The notes: a model not told the origin generated them from the sequence alone. A stretch of DNA of 28,662 bases from an uncultured Clostridia bacterium (GCA_905235885.1 CAJONM010000130.1:1-28662), one strand, 5' to 3'. Counted from the stretch's first letter, positions 6,958 to 11,871 are shown. Translations and numbers: made by a program.

Positions 6958-9900
6958 TTATTGTGCGCCTATGCAATTGATAAGCGGAGACATATTACCG
7001 TCCCACAGCATGAATTTGACCTTATCGCTGCTGTCAAATTCCGTATCTACATCTATCGAGCTGCCCGTACGGACACCGTCATAGATATGCGCCTTGCGAA
7101 GAACATTGTCTGCACCGTATACAGCCTCTATAAGAACGGTATCATCGCCCAACGCCGATGTGCCCTTTATATAGACCCTGCCGTTGCTGTAGGATATGCT
7201 CGTAGGCACACTCATTATCTTGGTCGTTACGGCAAAATCATCAAAATATACCTTGCAGTACAGTCCGTTTGTCGCAGTACCCCAGAATACGGGGAATGAG
7301 TTGTTATAGTCTGTAAATATCAATTCATCGTCAACATACATCGTTCTTGTAAATGTATCGTTGTCGTTTTCGATGGTTACCTTTACTTTTTTCCACTCTG
7401 ATGTTGACAGCTTATTTGTAAGCGAATTTGTTGCCTGCGTTGTTGTCGAGTCGCCGTAGAACAGCTGTGCCGTTGACGATCCGAGCTTGACCATAAACGA
7501 GCCTGTGAAGATGTAGCCGCTTGGCATAGCGGGATTGGTTATCTGCATCCTCGGTCCGCGGTTTGCGCTTACAAATTTTCCCGAATTGAGAACGAGAGTA
7601 TTCGTTCCGTTTACGCCCGATCCTGCTTCTATCCACCAGTTCGAAGTTGAGTCGTCGCCGTTGCCGCGCGTTCCGATATACAGGTCGGCACCGGGGTATG
7701 TTGTGTTTACAGGCTGATCGGTTGTCTGAATATACATAAATCTGCCCACGGGCGCATCGTCAAAGTTTGATGCTATATCGGTATCGGCATCCTCCTCCGG
7801 ATCCTGCTCGGCAATGCTGATGGAGGATGTATCCTTTTCTGTTGCAGCGTCGATAACGAATGATGACTCAGCTGCGTTCGTACCGTATGACATTCTTACC
7901 GTATTGCCGGAGACCGTCAGATACTTTTCGGGATCGGAAACGCTTTGGAATGATACGGTATCATCCTCGCCGTCAAGTCCCTTCATTGTCTTGAATGTCA
8001 TCTTATCGCCGTATGTGCCGGTGCTGTCCTGAGTAAGAGCTACAGATGTTCCCTCGCAGGAGATGTACAGACCCGGCTTATTTACCGATTGGATCGAAAC
8101 ATAATAATCGCTGTTCTCTCCGTCCGGCACGGATTTCGGCGCGGTAAGCTGCCATGCAGTGTTATAGCCATTCTCAGCTGATATTGCAGACAGGCTTACC
8201 GAGATCGGATAGCTTGCGTCCAAAAGTGAATTTTCAAATTCGCTGTGGCCTATGTATTTATCATCCGATGTCTTTATTACCTTCGCGCTTCCGGTAAGGC
8301 CTATCGATGTTTCCGTAAGCGGATATACATATCCGTCCTTATCAAATTCAAGCTCCTCTATACATACCGATCGTCTGAATCCCGAACCGAACGGTAGCGC
8401 GCCGTTATGGTAGATGAAGTATGTCTTTCCGTTAAAATCTATAACAGACGGATGGTTTGTGTTTGATGTGGCAGTAGGCGGCATGATTATCTGCTTGAAG
8501 TCGTATCTGCCCATCGGCGAGTCGCACATCGCATACGCCATTTCCTCGCGCCAGTTCATCGCATAGAACAAATAGTACTTTCCGTCGCGCTTATACAGCC
8601 ACGGCGCTTCTGTGTATGAGCCGCCGTTCATGCTCTTTATCGTGCGCTCTTTTATATCCCTGTTCATCGAGATGTTGCCGTCACCGTCTAGATCCTTTAT
8701 CGAGATCATATCCTCGTTAAGCTCGCAGATATAATACTTGCTGTTGCCCCATGCCAGATAGCGATGCTCCTCGCCGTATTCATCGGTGTCGATGAGTACG
8801 GTAGGATCAATATCGTTCCATGCCGAGCTTTCCGGAGCCGTCAATGTTCCGGCAACGAGCGGAGCGGACAGCGGATCGGTATACGGACCCTCCGGATTAT
8901 CCGCTACGGCAACGCCTATGGACTGCTTGCCGCTTGATGTATTATCCCATGTGCAGTAGTAGAAATAATATTTATTGTTATACTCTACCATTTGTCCTGC
9001 CCATGCGGATGTATCGCCTGTGCGCCACGATATGTCTGTCGCACTCATTATCGGACCTTTATACTCCCAGTTTTCCATATCCTTTGAGGTATAAAGCACC
9101 CATTCTCTCATTACATATTCTTCGCTTGATGCGGTGTCATGACCGACAATGAGATAGACGGTATCGCCGATCACCGTTGCCGCCGGATCGCCGCCGTAGA
9201 GGATATTTCCGCTTCCGTCAAAGCCAAGTACCGGGTTTCCTGCGCCGCCTCTTTCCAAGGCTACCGGTTCGGTCTCATCTGCTGTCATGGCAGGGGAGCT
9301 GTATACCGATGATACTATCTTCTTGCCGAATTGCGTAACATAGTTCTGATCAATACCCGTAAGCGCGATACAGGGCTGTTTTTCATCCTTATCATAGCCA
9401 TAGAGGGCATACATCGTCATTACATCGCCGGATTTATAATACTCGTCAAGCGATGTGTTGCCGTTCTTTGCAAAGCGGAGGGTGATCGTATGATCACCGT
9501 TAAAGTCCCATGTGCCCAGTCCGTCTGCCATCGTTCCGTCGGCGTTGAGCGTCACCTTTGATGAAAGAACGGGGAGGTCGTAGTTACGGTTTATGTATGT
9601 TCCCGATGTCGCTATGGAGCTCCCGTCCATTTTTGTTTTTCCCACGGATGCCAGATCATATGTACCCACAAGCATCTCTCTCGGAAGAGCCTGCTCGACC
9701 TCGCCGGCGTATGATACCGATGAAACGACCGGCCAACCGTTTATGTACATCATCTTGCGTACCTGAAGGAATGCCGCGCCTTCGACTGCGTCTTTTCTGA
9801 AATGCGAGCAGTAGAAGGACTCGCCGTTTGCGGCGGTTATCGCACTGTTATGACCTGAGCCGTAGTATATATGCGCGTCGCCGCTTTCATACGGCACATA

Positions 9901-11871
9901 ATAATCCTCCGCGTTTTCGTTTGTTACCGTCATTGATCCGTCACCGAGACGATAGGAGCCTATGAGCTTATATCCCGACGGCGACGATGTGCTGCCCTTG
10001 TCAAATTGTGTTCCGACTACAACATTCTTCGCGTCAACGAGCTGCGTACCCATATTCGTGCCGAAACTCTGTGAAAGAGCGCTTCGCGCTATACGGGTGT
10101 TATAGTTCGAGCCGAGCCAGCCGTATGATGTGAACATATAGCGGTAATTGCCGTTTTCGTACATCCACGCGCCCTCCGGACCTGCAACGCCGTTCTTTTG
10201 CGAGAATACGGTCGTGCCGAAATTATTTTTGCACGTGTTGAGAATAGTGGAGTCGCTTGTGTAGTCGATACCCTGTACAAATCCGTCATCTGTCAGAGGA
10301 GCCGCCTGTATGCCGCCCCAGAATGAGCCCCAGATAAAATATGCCTTGCCGTCGTTTGAATCGACATATATATTCGCGTCGATGGCATTTGTTTTGTATC
10401 CGCTCGTTTCCTTTGTCGCGAATACAACGCCGGCATCCTCTATGTCGGCATTCGGATCTGCCCAGAAGAGAGGACTGTCCGATTTCATAAGCGATATTGC
10501 CGAGTTTCTGCCGCCAAGACCGCATGAAAGGGAAATATACATCCAATACGGATGATCGTCATTCGGAACATATATGACATCCGGTGCCCAGTATGTGCCG
10601 TTCATGGTGGTGTTGGTGTAGTTGTTGGAGATAAACGCGTTCGTTACAGGTGATATCTGACTTGCGTTTATATTTGTGAAGTCGTACTTTGTCCAGTTTA
10701 TAAGATCGGTCGATGTAAAGATCAGGTGATGCGACGAATAAACATAATATGTATCGTCACCGTCAAATTTCACTATGGACGGATCGTGCGCACCGAATGT
10801 CGTCGCCGCCGAATCCGCCGGAGATGCTACGGGAGCCTTTATGCCGCCGTAAAGCGTTGTTGCCGGGTATGATTTATCATCGACATTAAGATTTACTACG
10901 ATCTTCTCCGCATTCGATGCGGGAATATTAAACGATACCGTTTCGCTTGAGAGCGAGGACAGCGTCACCGTATTGCTCGTGCCGAGCAAGGTCTCGTTGT
11001 CGCTGCTATCGACCGCATATGCCGACATCGACAGCGATCCGGTTTGGAGCGTGTCGTTTTCCAGCGTTGATGTTATAGTCATCGCCTTGCCGCCGTATGC
11101 GTACAGTTCATTGCCGTTCGTGTCATAAAAATGCGTGTCGCTTACAAAGCAGTTCTTATCGTAGACCTGCTCATACAGCTTGGCTGTATATGCCTCCGCC
11201 GCAAGCTCTCTTATTTCGTTCTCTGAGAGCGCGGAGGAGTATACCTTGAAATCATCTATCATTCCGTCAAAATACGGATCGGGCCACTGGGACTTGCCCA
11301 GATAGCACTGAGTAAATGTTGCAAGATCGCTGAAGTTATATGTTATGCCAGTTGAGGAGCCGACCTTGAAGCCGTCAATATACATCGTGGTCGTATTCCC
11401 CGAACGCGAAATAGACGCGTTGTGCCATTCGCCGACAGAGAATGAGGTATCCGAGTCCATACTCATCTCGCCCCCGTTCTTTATGGCAAATCGCGGATAT
11501 GCTCCGGCTGACACTGTAAGGAATGTATATACATCCATACCCGTACCGAGATCGAATACTCTTGCCCATACGCTTGTTGAATTGGGCTTGAGCCATACGC
11601 TTATCGTGAAATCACCCGTAAGCGTTTTCATTTCCGCTCCTGCGTTTATGGACGCATAGCCGCCGTCCGCGCCTGTAAGCGAAAGCGCGTTCCCGTCGCG
11701 TCCCTGTGCAAGCGAAGCGTTGCCGCTGAGCGTGTAGCTGTCGCCGCCCTGGTCAAATGTTACATTGATGATCGGCTCGACGGATGCCGCTTGTGCCGAA
11801 GTCATTATCGGACAACAGCCTATTGCGAGCGCTGCTGCGATAATAACCGATAGGATCCTCCTGAAATTCAT
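6958..11871 (-). CDS. Secreted multimodular glycoside hydrolase, 1637 aa: signal peptide, LamG, Ig-like, GH43 (arabinanase-like) with accessory C-domain, second GH43 (arabinofuranosidase/xylosidase-like), AbfB/CBM42-like, beta-sandwich, C-terminal module
   Basis: Signal peptide ending SAQA. LamG pattern (FTISVWLK, FDGMIDDFKVYSSALS). GH43-1 with HDP(D363), WAPD, NAID(D498), PEG(E566) and GHNS. GH43-2 with GDP(D895), WAGQ, DIDP(D1022), TEAPW(E1088) and NHPS. AbfB-like repeats (SIQSVNKPGLYI, SFQSVSDPEKYL). Confidence 0.9.
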   Translation of the reverse strand: MNFRRILSVIIAAALAIGCCPIMTSAQAASVEPIINVTFDQGGDSYTLSGNASLAQGRDGNALSLTGADGGYASINAGAEMKTLTGDFTISVWLKPNSTSVWARVFDLGTGMDVYTFLTVSAGAYPRFAIKNGGEMSMDSDTSFSVGEWHNASISRSGNTTTMYIDGFKVGSSTGITYNFSDLATFTQCYLGKSQWPDPYFDGMIDDFKVYSSALSENEIRELAAEAYTAKLYEQVYDKNCFVSDTHFYDTNGNELYAYGGKAMTITSTLENDTLQTGSLSMSAYAVDSSDNETLLGTSNTVTLSSLSSETVSFNIPASNAEKIVVNLNVDDKSYPATTLYGGIKAPVASPADSAATTFGAHDPSIVKFDGDDTYYVYSSHHLIFTSTDLINWTKYDFTNINASQISPVTNAFISNNYTNTTMNGTYWAPDVIYVPNDDHPYWMYISLSCGLGGRNSAISLMKSDSPLFWADPNADIEDAGVVFATKETSGYKTNAIDANIYVDSNDGKAYFIWGSFWGGIQAAPLTDDGFVQGIDYTSDSTILNTCKNNFGTTVFSQKNGVAGPEGAWMYENGNYRYMFTSYGWLGSNYNTRIARSALSQSFGTNMGTQLVDAKNVVVGTQFDKGSTSSPSGYKLIGSYRLGDGSMTVTNENAEDYYVPYESGDAHIYYGSGHNSAITAANGESFYCSHFRKDAVEGAAFLQVRKMMYINGWPVVSSVSYAGEVEQALPREMLVGTYDLASVGKTKMDGSSIATSGTYINRNYDLPVLSSKVTLNADGTMADGLGTWDFNGDHTITLRFAKNGNTSLDEYYKSGDVMTMYALYGYDKDEKQPCIALTGIDQNYVTQFGKKIVSSVYSSPAMTADETEPVALERGGAGNPVLGFDGSGNILYGGDPAATVIGDTVYLIVGHDTASSEEYVMREWVLYTSKDMENWEYKGPIMSATDISWRTGDTSAWAGQMVEYNNKYYFYYCTWDNTSSGKQSIGVAVADNPEGPYTDPLSAPLVAGTLTAPESSAWNDIDPTVLIDTDEYGEEHRYLAWGNSKYYICELNEDMISIKDLDGDGNISMNRDIKERTIKSMNGGSYTEAPWLYKRDGKYYLFYAMNWREEMAYAMCDSPMGRYDFKQIIMPPTATSNTNHPSVIDFNGKTYFIYHNGALPFGSGFRRSVCIEELEFDKDGYVYPLTETSIGLTGSAKVIKTSDDKYIGHSEFENSLLDASYPISVSLSAISAENGYNTAWQLTAPKSVPDGENSDYYVSIQSVNKPGLYISCEGTSVALTQDSTGTYGDKMTFKTMKGLDGEDDTVSFQSVSDPEKYLTVSGNTVRMSYGTNAAESSFVIDAATEKDTSSISIAEQDPEEDADTDIASNFDDAPVGRFMYIQTTDQPVNTTYPGADLYIGTRGNGDDSTSNWWIEAGSGVNGTNTLVLNSGKFVSANRGPRMQITNPAMPSGYIFTGSFMVKLGSSTAQLFYGDSTTTQATNSLTNKLSTSEWKKVKVTIENDNDTFTRTMYVDDELIFTDYNNSFPVFWGTATNGLYCKVYFDDFAVTTKIMSVPTSISYSNGRVYIKGTSALGDDTVLIEAVYGADNVLRKAHIYDGVRTGSSIDVDTEFDSSDKVKFMLWDGNMSPLINCIGAQ

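What the first reader, a model, noticed from the sequence alone, without database searches (positions are those of the whole stretch)
6958..7209. Unassigned ~80-aa C-terminal module (AVY...L...KVKFMLWDGNMSPL): candidate surface-sorting or docking tag
Seen: this large secreted enzyme has no LPxTG plus TM anchor, no SLH repeats, no clear lipobox and no dockerin duplicated Ca-loops. It ends instead in YSNGRVYIK...VLIEAVYGADNVLRK...DKVKFMLWDGNMSPLINCIGAQ. Inference from pattern recall, not verified: a similar 'AVY-x2-3-G/N-x-L ... K-x3-W-x2-4-M-x-PL' tail ends many unrelated secreted proteins of uncultured gut Clostridia (Monoglobales-like). If so, it could mark an undescribed cell-surface attachment, secretion or cellulosome-like assembly system.
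Basis: inference. Interest (0 to 1): 0.72.

Follow-up and report, generated by a model that had tools for sequence, protein, structure and literature searches.

The report
Unnamed terminal Ig-like module, gut Clostridia
The last ~85 residues of this secreted arabinan-degrading enzyme are one copy of a very abundant protein domain that Pfam, NCBIfam and the PDB do not describe; it ends many unrelated secreted proteins of S-layer-bearing gut Clostridia and probably holds them at the cell surface, though that function is untested.

Summary
The tail of the 1637-aa GH43 protein (window 6961-7203, minus strand) is an autonomous ~85-aa domain. AlphaFold2 gives a seven-strand beta-sandwich with pLDDT 87. 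Its signature is [VI]-x-A-x-Y-D-x-x-G-x-L ... K-x-[MF]-x-W-D ... M-x-P.

- A profile built only from other genomes finds it with E 2.5e-11, plus 12 further copies in this 72%-complete genome.
- Those copies sit on GH53, PL11, GH95, an S8 protease, a transglutaminase-like protein and others.
- About 2,000 protein clusters carry it worldwide, with up to ~70 matches per genome in the same genus (relatives are named Candidatus Ornithomonoglobus).
- Of 130 true hits, 114 are at the extreme C-terminus, 10 follow the signal peptide and 6 are internal.
- No Pfam, NCBIfam or PDB family covers it.

It is not a strict C-terminal sorting signal. It never shares a chain with SLH when terminal. All 115 genomes that have it also have SLH. 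It follows single cohesins, in the slot where LPXTG or SLH anchors normally sit.

Best reading (about 0.45): a non-covalent cell-surface retention module. Rivals are a ligand-binding adhesion module or a structural Ig-like cap. No binding partner was found.

The parts
6961..7203 (-). C-terminal module, residues ~1557-1637: a seven-strand beta-sandwich with the signature residues A1583, Y1585, K1619, W1623 and P1629 (A41, Y43, K77, W81, P87 of the 95-aa tail numbering).
   Evidence: Leave-own-genome-out profile E 2.5e-11. AF2 model pLDDT 86.9, strands at tail residues 15-94. Column conservation.
6958..6960 (-). Stop codon directly after the module.
   Evidence: Translation and ORF list.
7204..7851 (-). 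Preceding unassigned domain, residues ~1341-1556, ending in YFDDFAVTT. It is conserved in all orthologues and marks the point after which the tails diverge.
   Evidence: No Pfam hit for 1330-1637. Orthologue C-termini.
10837..11088 (-). Degenerate internal copy of the same module type, residues ~262-345 (SMSAYAVDSSDNETLL...KIVVNLNVDD). It has lost the W and the M-x-P motif.
   Evidence: Orthologues without the C-terminal module have a canonical copy here, E 5e-16 to 3e-9. The window copy is not significant.
11788..11871 (-). Signal peptide, residues 1-28, with a lipobox-like AIGC and an AQA|A cleavage site.
   Evidence: Sequence. Orthologue N-termini.
6958..11871 (-). Whole carrier gene: LamG, degenerate Ig-like module, GH43 arabinanase-like region, GH43_C, a second GH43, AbfB trefoil, unassigned domain, module.
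   Evidence: Pfam and NCBIfam.

Best explanation
The tail is one copy of an autonomous, frequently shuffled ~85-aa Ig-like beta-sandwich domain family that Pfam-A (2025), NCBIfam 20.0 and the PDB do not describe. The family is greatly expanded in Clostridia that carry S-layer-homology (SLH) proteins.

Proposed working (inferred, not shown):
1. The Sec pathway exports the enzyme through its N-terminal signal peptide.
2. The folded module stays on the mature protein.
3. The module binds non-covalently to a component of the cell envelope, either the S-layer, an SLH-anchored protein or a wall polysaccharide.
4. Large enzymes, proteases, LRR adhesins and single-cohesin proteins are thereby kept at the cell surface, as an alternative to carrying SLH repeats or an LPXTG signal.

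It works as a position-independent binding domain that is usually placed at a chain end. It is not a cleavable C-terminal secretion signal. That it is a real, recurrent, unannotated domain family is near certain. The anchoring function is the inferred part.
For: Family is real:
- Leave-out profile E 2.5e-11 for the window copy, and exactly 13 ORFs in this genome.
- 2,038 clusters worldwide.
- Confident seven-strand beta-sandwich model.

Carriers are unrelated exported proteins:
- GH43, GH53, two PL11, GH95 with a SASA esterase, S8 protease, transglutaminase-like.
- BspA-type LRR, Flg_new, Lectin_C, metallophosphoesterases, cohesins.
- Most of the full-length carriers whose N-termini were read start with a Sec-type signal peptide.

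Position and autonomy:
- 114 of 130 true hits lie within 15 residues of the C-terminus and 10 directly follow the signal peptide.
- Two unrelated proteins of this genome share only their last 90 aa, at 81% aa and 92% nt identity.

Relation to SLH:
- In this genome, 18 SLH ORFs and 12-13 module ORFs, none with both.
- Among 130 carriers elsewhere, only one has SLH, and its module is internal.
- All 115 module-positive genomes of 399 sampled Clostridia are among the 250 SLH-positive ones. The module was found in none of the SLH-negative genomes.

Anchor slot:
- Eight clusters are ~240-aa proteins built as signal peptide, one cohesin, then the module.
- LPXTG occupies that place in ScaE- and cSca5-type anchoring scaffoldins (PMC13463774, PMC12997984). 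From my own knowledge, SLH occupies it in the OlpA/SdbA type.
- In one conserved cluster an SLH-cohesin gene, a cohesin-module gene and a cohesin-dockerin-LRR gene lie side by side.

One good copy per orthologue:
- GH43 orthologues have either a canonical internal copy or a C-terminal one; in the three with the region sequenced (window, L015, L018) the other copy is weak or undetected.
Against: - No binding was shown and no partner was found. Neighbourhoods of the 13 genes share nothing.
- The SLH protein next to one module gene occurs in only 13 of 41 relatives.
- The stand-alone module gene beside a conserved 865-aa SLH protein in two genomes is missing from four other loci of that protein.
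- The module is acidic (median pI 4.5), which is unlike typical binders of anionic wall polymers.
- Orthologues do without it at the C-terminus, or carry a LamG-like domain there.
- The link with SLH genomes may be shared ancestry rather than function.
- The GH43 signal peptide has a lipobox-like AIGC that could give a different tether.
- The fold is a generic Ig-like sandwich. The best structural matches are Ig domains of GH2 enzymes, Z about 9.
Confidence: 0.45

Rival explanations
1. A ligand-binding adhesion module, CBM-like or lectin-like. It would target the carrier to an external surface such as dietary fibre, mucus or other cells, rather than to the bacterium's own envelope.
For: - Many carriers are glycan-degrading enzymes or adhesin-type LRR and Flg_new proteins.
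- In GH43 orthologues it is interchangeable with, or followed by, a LamG-like lectin-fold domain.
- A cohesin-module protein could be a mini-scaffoldin with a targeting module.
- The fold resembles Ig/CBM-like domains.
- An acidic pI is usual for CBMs.
Against: - It is also on proteases, phosphoesterases, a flavodoxin-domain protein and a tyrosine-phosphatase-family protein, which share no substrate.
- Near-complete exclusion from SLH-bearing chains is not expected of a CBM, since CBMs commonly share chains with SLH.
- No match to any CBM family in Pfam.
Confidence: 0.25
2. A structural Ig-like domain without a specific ligand: a terminal cap, spacer or folding and stability aid for large exported proteins.
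For: - Generic beta-sandwich fold with no functional match.
- Most conserved residues are hydrophobic or aromatic and could be core residues.
- It occurs internally as well.
- Orthologues can lack it.
Against: - Strong bias to chain ends.
- Recent domain-level copying onto unrelated genes.
- A one-good-copy-per-orthologue pattern.
- Stand-alone secreted copies.
- Exclusion from SLH chains.
- 91% conservation of a lysine.
- A ~240-aa cohesin-module protein needs no spacer.
Confidence: 0.2
3. A C-terminal secretion or sorting signal analogous to the T9SS C-terminal domain. A dedicated machine would recognise it and then remove it or swap it for an anchor.
For: - Size, fold and position resemble T9SS CTDs.
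- Weak Por_Secre_tail hits in 8 of 131 members, best E 0.006.
- T9SS CTD structures appear among fold matches: Z 7.8 and AFDB rows.
Against: - 10 of 130 copies are N-terminal and 6 internal.
- In orthologues it is followed by another domain or is internal only.
- The carriers whose N-termini were read mostly have ordinary Sec signal peptides.
- The Por_Secre_tail model finds nothing in this genome even at E<=10.
- The organisms are Clostridia.
Confidence: 0.05

Closest known systems
SLH (S-layer homology) domains, PF00395
   Same: A terminal module, at either end, on many unrelated exported enzymes and adhesins of the same organisms. Both are abundant in the same genomes. It takes the place of SLH next to single cohesins.
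   Different: No sequence or fold relation. One ~85-aa beta-sandwich rather than three ~55-aa helical repeats. Acidic. The ligand is unknown, whereas SLH binds pyruvylated wall polysaccharide (my own knowledge).
T9SS C-terminal sorting domain (Por_Secre_tail, PF18962 / TIGR04183)
   Same: A ~80-aa Ig-like beta-sandwich that ends many unrelated secreted proteins. Weak profile and fold echoes.
   Different: Not restricted to the C-terminus. No significant HMM match. The hosts are Clostridia with Sec signal peptides. No evidence of cleavage.
LPXTG sortase signal of ScaE/cSca5-type anchoring scaffoldins
   Same: Occupies the same slot after a single cohesin in small secreted proteins (PMC13463774, PMC12997984).
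   Different: A folded domain, not a motif plus a membrane helix. Any attachment would be non-covalent.
FxLYD domain (NCBIfam NF038353) and CARDB-type Ig-like domains
   Same: Shares the strand-turn-strand motif x-[LV]-Y-D-x-[DN]-G-x-[LVI]. 11 of 131 members give weak hits, best E 3e-7. hhalign probability 56% over 32 columns.
   Different: The FxLYD model misses all 13 copies of this genome. It is rare in Clostridia, 6 of 150 genomes with 1-2 copies each. It lacks the K-x-F-x-W-D ... M-x-P half.
Ig-like domains of GH2 glycosidases (e.g. CsxA 2vzo, BtMan2A 2je8)
   Same: Best structural matches: Z 9.0-9.7 and TM about 0.6.
   Different: 10-16% identity. Those are internal domains of one enzyme family. 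The scores lie in the range the tool calls common for unrelated beta-sandwiches.
Type I dockerin
   Same: A C-terminal add-on shared by many enzymes of one genome.
   Different: No Ca-binding repeats. It shares chains with dockerins and cohesins. This genome showed no cohesin or dockerin at 72% completeness.

Membership tests
The module family defined here (A-x-Y-D ... K-x-F-x-W-D ... M-x-P) | Significant match to a profile built without the window or its genome | tested here: met
   E 2.5e-11, residues 1554-1634 of the protein.
The module family defined here (A-x-Y-D ... K-x-F-x-W-D ... M-x-P) | The five positions conserved in at least 90% of members (A, Y, K, W, P) | tested here: met
   A41, Y43, K77, W81 and P87 are all present. 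D44 is G and G47 is N in this copy.
T9SS C-terminal sorting domain (PF18962 / TIGR04183) | HMM match at or above the curated cut-off | tested here: not met
   No hit at E<=10 in the genome. 8 of 131 members at E>=0.006. One member at 3e-4 in NCBIfam.
T9SS C-terminal sorting domain (PF18962 / TIGR04183) | Obligate extreme C-terminal position | tested here: not met
   10 N-terminal and 6 internal of 130. Penultimate or internal in orthologues.
T9SS C-terminal sorting domain (PF18962 / TIGR04183) | T9SS machinery (PorU/PorV/SprA) in the genome | not tested
   Not searched. The relatives are Clostridia MAGs.
SLH domain (PF00395) | HMM match in the protein | tested here: not met
   Absent from P0002. 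None of the 37 SLH matches in the genome lies in a module ORF.
Dockerin type I (PF00404) | HMM match or duplicated Ca-binding loops | tested here: not met
   No hit in P0002 or in the genome.
LPXTG sortase substrate | LPXTG motif, then a hydrophobic helix and a basic tail at the C-terminus | tested here: not met
   The protein ends ...WDGNMSPLINCIGAQ with no such motif. One sortase gene is present in the genome.
FxLYD domain (NF038353) | HMM match over the 23-bit cut-off | tested here: not met
   No hit on any of the 13 modules. The only genome hit (19 bits) is a different region of contig C55.
FxLYD domain (NF038353) | Profile-profile homology | tested here: inconclusive
   hhalign probability 56%, 32 aligned columns.
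Known Ig/CBM/FN3 Pfam families (Big_x, CARDB, fn3, Mannosidase_ig) | HMM match | tested here: not met
   No family at E<=1 for the window copy. No family matches more than 8 of 131 members.
Immunoglobulin-like beta-sandwich fold | Seven-strand two-sheet sandwich of ~85 aa | tested here: met
   AF2 pLDDT 86.9. Z 8-9.7 against many Ig-like domains.

The most novel reading that the evidence does not exclude
The module defines a third, undescribed route of protein display on the surface of S-layer-bearing gut Clostridia, beside SLH repeats and sortase. In this reading a single folded beta-sandwich docks dozens of enzymes, adhesins and even cohesin proteins per genome onto a conserved envelope receptor, either an S-layer protein or a wall glycan. 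Genes gain and lose it as a mobile cassette.
Probability: 0.35. Interest if true: 0.8.

Novelty: new variant of a known kind. Interest (0 to 1): 0.6.

Why it matters
Monoglobales and Oscillospirales-type Clostridia are major fibre and pectin degraders of animal and human guts, and most are uncultured. How their large enzymes stay at the cell surface is only known for SLH, sortase and cohesin-dockerin systems. Here one unannotated domain sits on up to ~70 proteins per genome and on about 2,000 protein clusters.

If it is a surface-retention device, three things follow:
- It explains the localisation of a large share of these secretomes.
- It gives a sequence marker for surface-exposed proteins in metagenomes.
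- It offers a small display tag for engineering.

Even if it proves to be only a structural domain, it deserves a family entry so that thousands of protein tails stop being unannotated.

Tried and rejected
- **Complex prediction.** I sent the stand-alone module of genome G032 with the non-SLH part of its neighbouring 867-aa SLH protein, both as alignments (after two busy errors).
- **Search for a receptor by synteny.**
  - The SLH gene that overlaps the module gene on contig C78 has homologues in only 13 of 41 relatives.
  - The SLH-protein plus stand-alone-module pairing of G032 and G040 is missing from four other loci of that conserved protein.
  - The neighbourhoods of the 13 module genes share no gene.
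- **The search for related loci with the module alignment.** It failed for lack of a conserved 7-10-column stretch.
- **Literature.** Four word searches on Monoglobus and SLH and one on FxLYD gave nothing usable. Two cellulosome papers describe LPXTG- or membrane-anchored cohesins but not this module.
- **Names of carrier proteins.** None is on record for the ten looked up.
- **ESM Atlas feature search.** Only unnamed Bacillota clusters below the 0.9 threshold.
- **Multi-stretch hits in the global search.** 20 of the best 150 are taken as false positives: they match only a short part of the profile several times. The same short motif matches designed Kelch-type repeat proteins in the PDB.
- **Foldseek against the PDB.** No match at E<=1e-3.

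Full report
**What is at the coordinates**

The minus-strand ORF 6958-11871 encodes a 1637-aa protein with a Sec-type signal peptide. Pfam and NCBIfam place a Laminin_G_3 domain (69-220), an arabinanase-like GH43 region (~360-800), GH43_C (720-849), a second GH43 (895-1181) and an AbfB trefoil (1254-1332). Nothing is assigned after residue ~1340, and there is no SLH, dockerin or LPXTG anchor. The quoted C-terminal sequence is exact.

**The tail is a real, recurrent domain**

- A single-sequence search of the source genome (1.35 Mb, 201 contigs, 72% complete, 47.7% GC) already gave weak hits, nearly all at C-termini.
- Iterated profiles converged on 13 ORFs.
- The clean test is a profile of 122 sequences from other genomes only. 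It recovers the window tail at E 2.5e-11 and exactly the same 13 ORFs, with nothing else at E<=0.01.
- The 13 carriers are: this GH43, a GH53, two PL11 rhamnogalacturonan lyases, a GH95 with a SASA esterase, an S8/PA protease, a transglutaminase-like protein, a Flg_new repeat protein and several proteins with no Pfam family.
- Ten carry the module at the extreme C-terminus. One has it right after the signal peptide (C165). One has it internally, ahead of a CUB-like domain (C55). One is a 129-aa ORF at a contig end.
- Against 1.84 billion representative proteins the family profile gave 2,038 clusters at E<=1e-3.
- Of the best 150, 20 match only a short stretch several times; the same stretch matches designed Kelch-type repeat proteins, so I count them as false positives. 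Of the other 130, 114 have the module within 15 residues of the C-terminus, 10 directly after a signal peptide and 6 internally.
- Most full-length carriers start with typical signal peptides.

**Anatomy**

The core is ~84 aa and acidic, with median pI 4.5. At least 90% of members keep A41, Y43, K77, W81 and P87 (numbering of the 95-aa tail). The signature is [VLI]-[IY]-x-A-x-Y-D-x-[ND]-G-x-L ... [VI]-K-x-[MF]-x-W-[DN] ... M-x-P. AlphaFold2 with a 131-sequence alignment gives a seven-strand beta-sandwich, pLDDT 86.9 and pTM 0.75.

**Comparison with known families**

| Library or test | Result |
|---|---|
| Pfam, window copy | No family at E<=1 |
| Pfam, 131 members | Most frequent are Por_Secre_tail (8 members, best E 0.006) and Mannosidase_ig (6) |
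| NCBIfam, 131 members | FxLYD_dom in 11 members, best E 3e-7 |
| FxLYD model on this genome | Misses all 13 copies |
| FxLYD model on Clostridia | 6 of 150 genomes |
| Profile-profile, module vs FxLYD | 56% probability over 32 columns |
| PDB by sequence | No relative |
| Foldseek vs PDB | Nothing at E<=1e-3 |
| Exhaustive structural alignment | GH2 Ig-like domains on top (Z 9.0-9.7), a T9SS CTD at Z 7.8 |
| AFDB clusters, ESM Atlas | Same fold at the ends of unnamed Bacillota proteins bearing LRR, cohesin, S8 or beta-helix domains |

The structural scores lie in the range the tool calls common. The fold is a generic Ig-like sandwich. By sequence the family is undescribed in these libraries, with at most a remote link to FxLYD/CARDB-type domains.

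**Who has it**

- All 41 genomes sampled from the order have the module, and genomes of the same genus have up to 70 matches.
- In an even sample of the class, 115 of 399 genomes have it. The pattern follows families: some are 13/13, others 0/16.
- SLH is present in 250 of the same 399 genomes. By inspection of the two tables, all 115 module-positive genomes are SLH-positive; one of them (G310) has a single weak SLH hit. The module was found in none of the SLH-negative genomes.
- Related genomes are not independent, so this is descriptive, not a statistical test.

**Architecture evidence on function**

1. *Exclusion from SLH chains.* This genome has 18 SLH ORFs and 12-13 module ORFs, none with both. 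Among the 130 carriers elsewhere only P0103 has SLH, and its module is internal.
2. *The anchor slot.* Eight clusters in the top 150 are 239-259-aa proteins built as signal peptide, one cohesin (Pfam E 3e-8 to 4e-16), then the module. Single-cohesin proteins that end in LPXTG are the accepted cell-wall anchors of ruminococcal cellulosomes and of the Limousia mucinolysome (PMC13463774, PMC12997984). In two contigs an SLH-cohesin gene, a cohesin-module gene and a cohesin-dockerin-LRR gene lie in a row.
3. *It is not a dockerin substitute.* Three of ten N-terminal-module proteins also carry dockerins, one of them with a cohesin as well. This genome showed no cohesin or dockerin.
4. *Mobility.* The 1366-aa Flg_new protein and the 810-aa GH53 share only their last 90 aa, at 81% aa identity and 92% nt identity over 223 nt.
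5. *Orthologues of this very enzyme differ in the tail*:
   - The window, L015, L020 and L027 end in the module.
   - L018, L021 and L026 have the module followed by a LamG-like domain.
   - L017, L019, L023, L024 and L025 have the LamG-like domain only (L016 reads the same but runs off its contig).
   - L022 stops after the preceding domain.
6. *One good copy per protein.* Those without a C-terminal copy have a canonical copy between the N-terminal LamG and the first GH43 (E 5e-16 to 3e-9). In the window, L015 and L018 that internal domain is weak or undetected; the window and L015 sequences have lost the W and the M-x-P motif. This suggests a position-independent function.
7. *Stand-alone copies.* In two low-copy genomes of the order, the only copy is a 136-aa protein of signal peptide plus module, directly downstream of an 875-aa N-terminal-SLH protein.

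**Interpretation**

The positional data and the ordinary signal peptides argue strongly against a T9SS-like C-terminal secretion signal. Several features are easiest to explain by a domain that keeps exported proteins at the cell envelope by non-covalent binding:
- the diversity of carriers, including proteases and phosphoesterases;
- the exclusion from SLH chains;
- the restriction to SLH-bearing lineages;
- the cohesin-module proteins.

I give that reading about 0.45.

Nothing shows binding, no receptor emerged, the domain is acidic, and orthologues can lack it. An outward-directed adhesion or CBM-like role (0.25) and a purely structural role (0.2) therefore stay open.

The receptor searches failed:
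- The SLH protein next to the C78 module gene occurs in only 13 of 41 relatives.
- The SLH-protein plus stand-alone-module synteny is not conserved at four other loci.
- The window's own neighbours are housekeeping genes: hisH/hisF, rpsB, tsf, a pseudouridine synthase and ksgA.

**Novelty and score**

The family appears undescribed in Pfam-A 2025, NCBIfam 20.0 and the PDB, despite about 2,000 clusters and dozens of copies per genome. The kind of thing is familiar: a terminal Ig-like module on surface proteins. I therefore rate it a new variant of a known kind, with interest 0.6. If a dedicated envelope receptor exists, it would be a third display system of Gram-positive gut anaerobes.

Noticed in passing
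window 11815-11826 (-), residues 16-19 of the GH43: The signal peptide holds a lipobox-like A-I-G-C upstream of an AQA|A site. Orthologues L015 (LSGC) and L020 (FAGC) have similar motifs, while L019, L021, L023 and L024 have no Cys there. The enzyme might be a lipoprotein in some lineages.
   Followed up: partly
window 7204-7851 (-), residues ~1341-1556: A ~215-aa domain with no Pfam match, ending in YFDD[FL]-x-[IV]-x-T-[TK]. It is conserved in all orthologues and lies immediately before the variable tail. It looks like a jelly-roll or CBM-like domain, but it was neither folded nor searched.
   Followed up: no
window 10837-11088 (-), residues ~262-345: The internal Ig-like domain is a degenerate member of the same module family. 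It is canonical (E down to 5e-16) in the orthologues that lack the C-terminal copy.
   Followed up: yes
L011 (contig C129) 7789-8178 (-): A 129-aa ORF at a contig end holds a module copy that is the closest paralogue of the window tail (34% identity). It loses the M-x-P end and runs into an odd hydrophobic tail. This is probably a frameshift, a truncated gene or an assembly edge.
   Followed up: no
L082 1586-7830 and L083 5496-10120: A three-gene cluster: SLH x3 with a cohesin (412 aa), a cohesin with the module (248 aa), and a cohesin-dockerin-Flg_new/LRR protein (1409 aa), downstream of a phage-type integrase. It looks like a small cohesin-dockerin adhesin system with two differently tailed single-cohesin proteins.
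   Followed up: partly
L065 64-498 (-) and 604-3228 (-); L062 1411-1821 (+): In two low-copy genomes of the same order, the only module copy is a 136-aa secreted stand-alone protein. It lies between an N-terminal-SLH protein (875 aa stop-to-stop, 867 aa called) and nrdD. That SLH protein has more than 900 full-length homologues, but four other loci of it lack the small gene.
   Followed up: yes
L004 (contig C55) 439-609 (+) and 898-1209 (+): One carrier has, in order, a sub-threshold FxLYD-like Ig domain, an internal module copy and a C-terminal CUB-like domain. It is an example of the module in a non-terminal position.
   Followed up: partly
L008 (contig C78) 9508-12311 (-): A module gene (373 aa, no Pfam family) overlaps by about 12 nt the start of a 564-aa protein that carries a PT linker and three C-terminal SLH repeats. 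The SLH protein's N-terminal domain occurs in only 13 of 41 relatives.
   Followed up: yes
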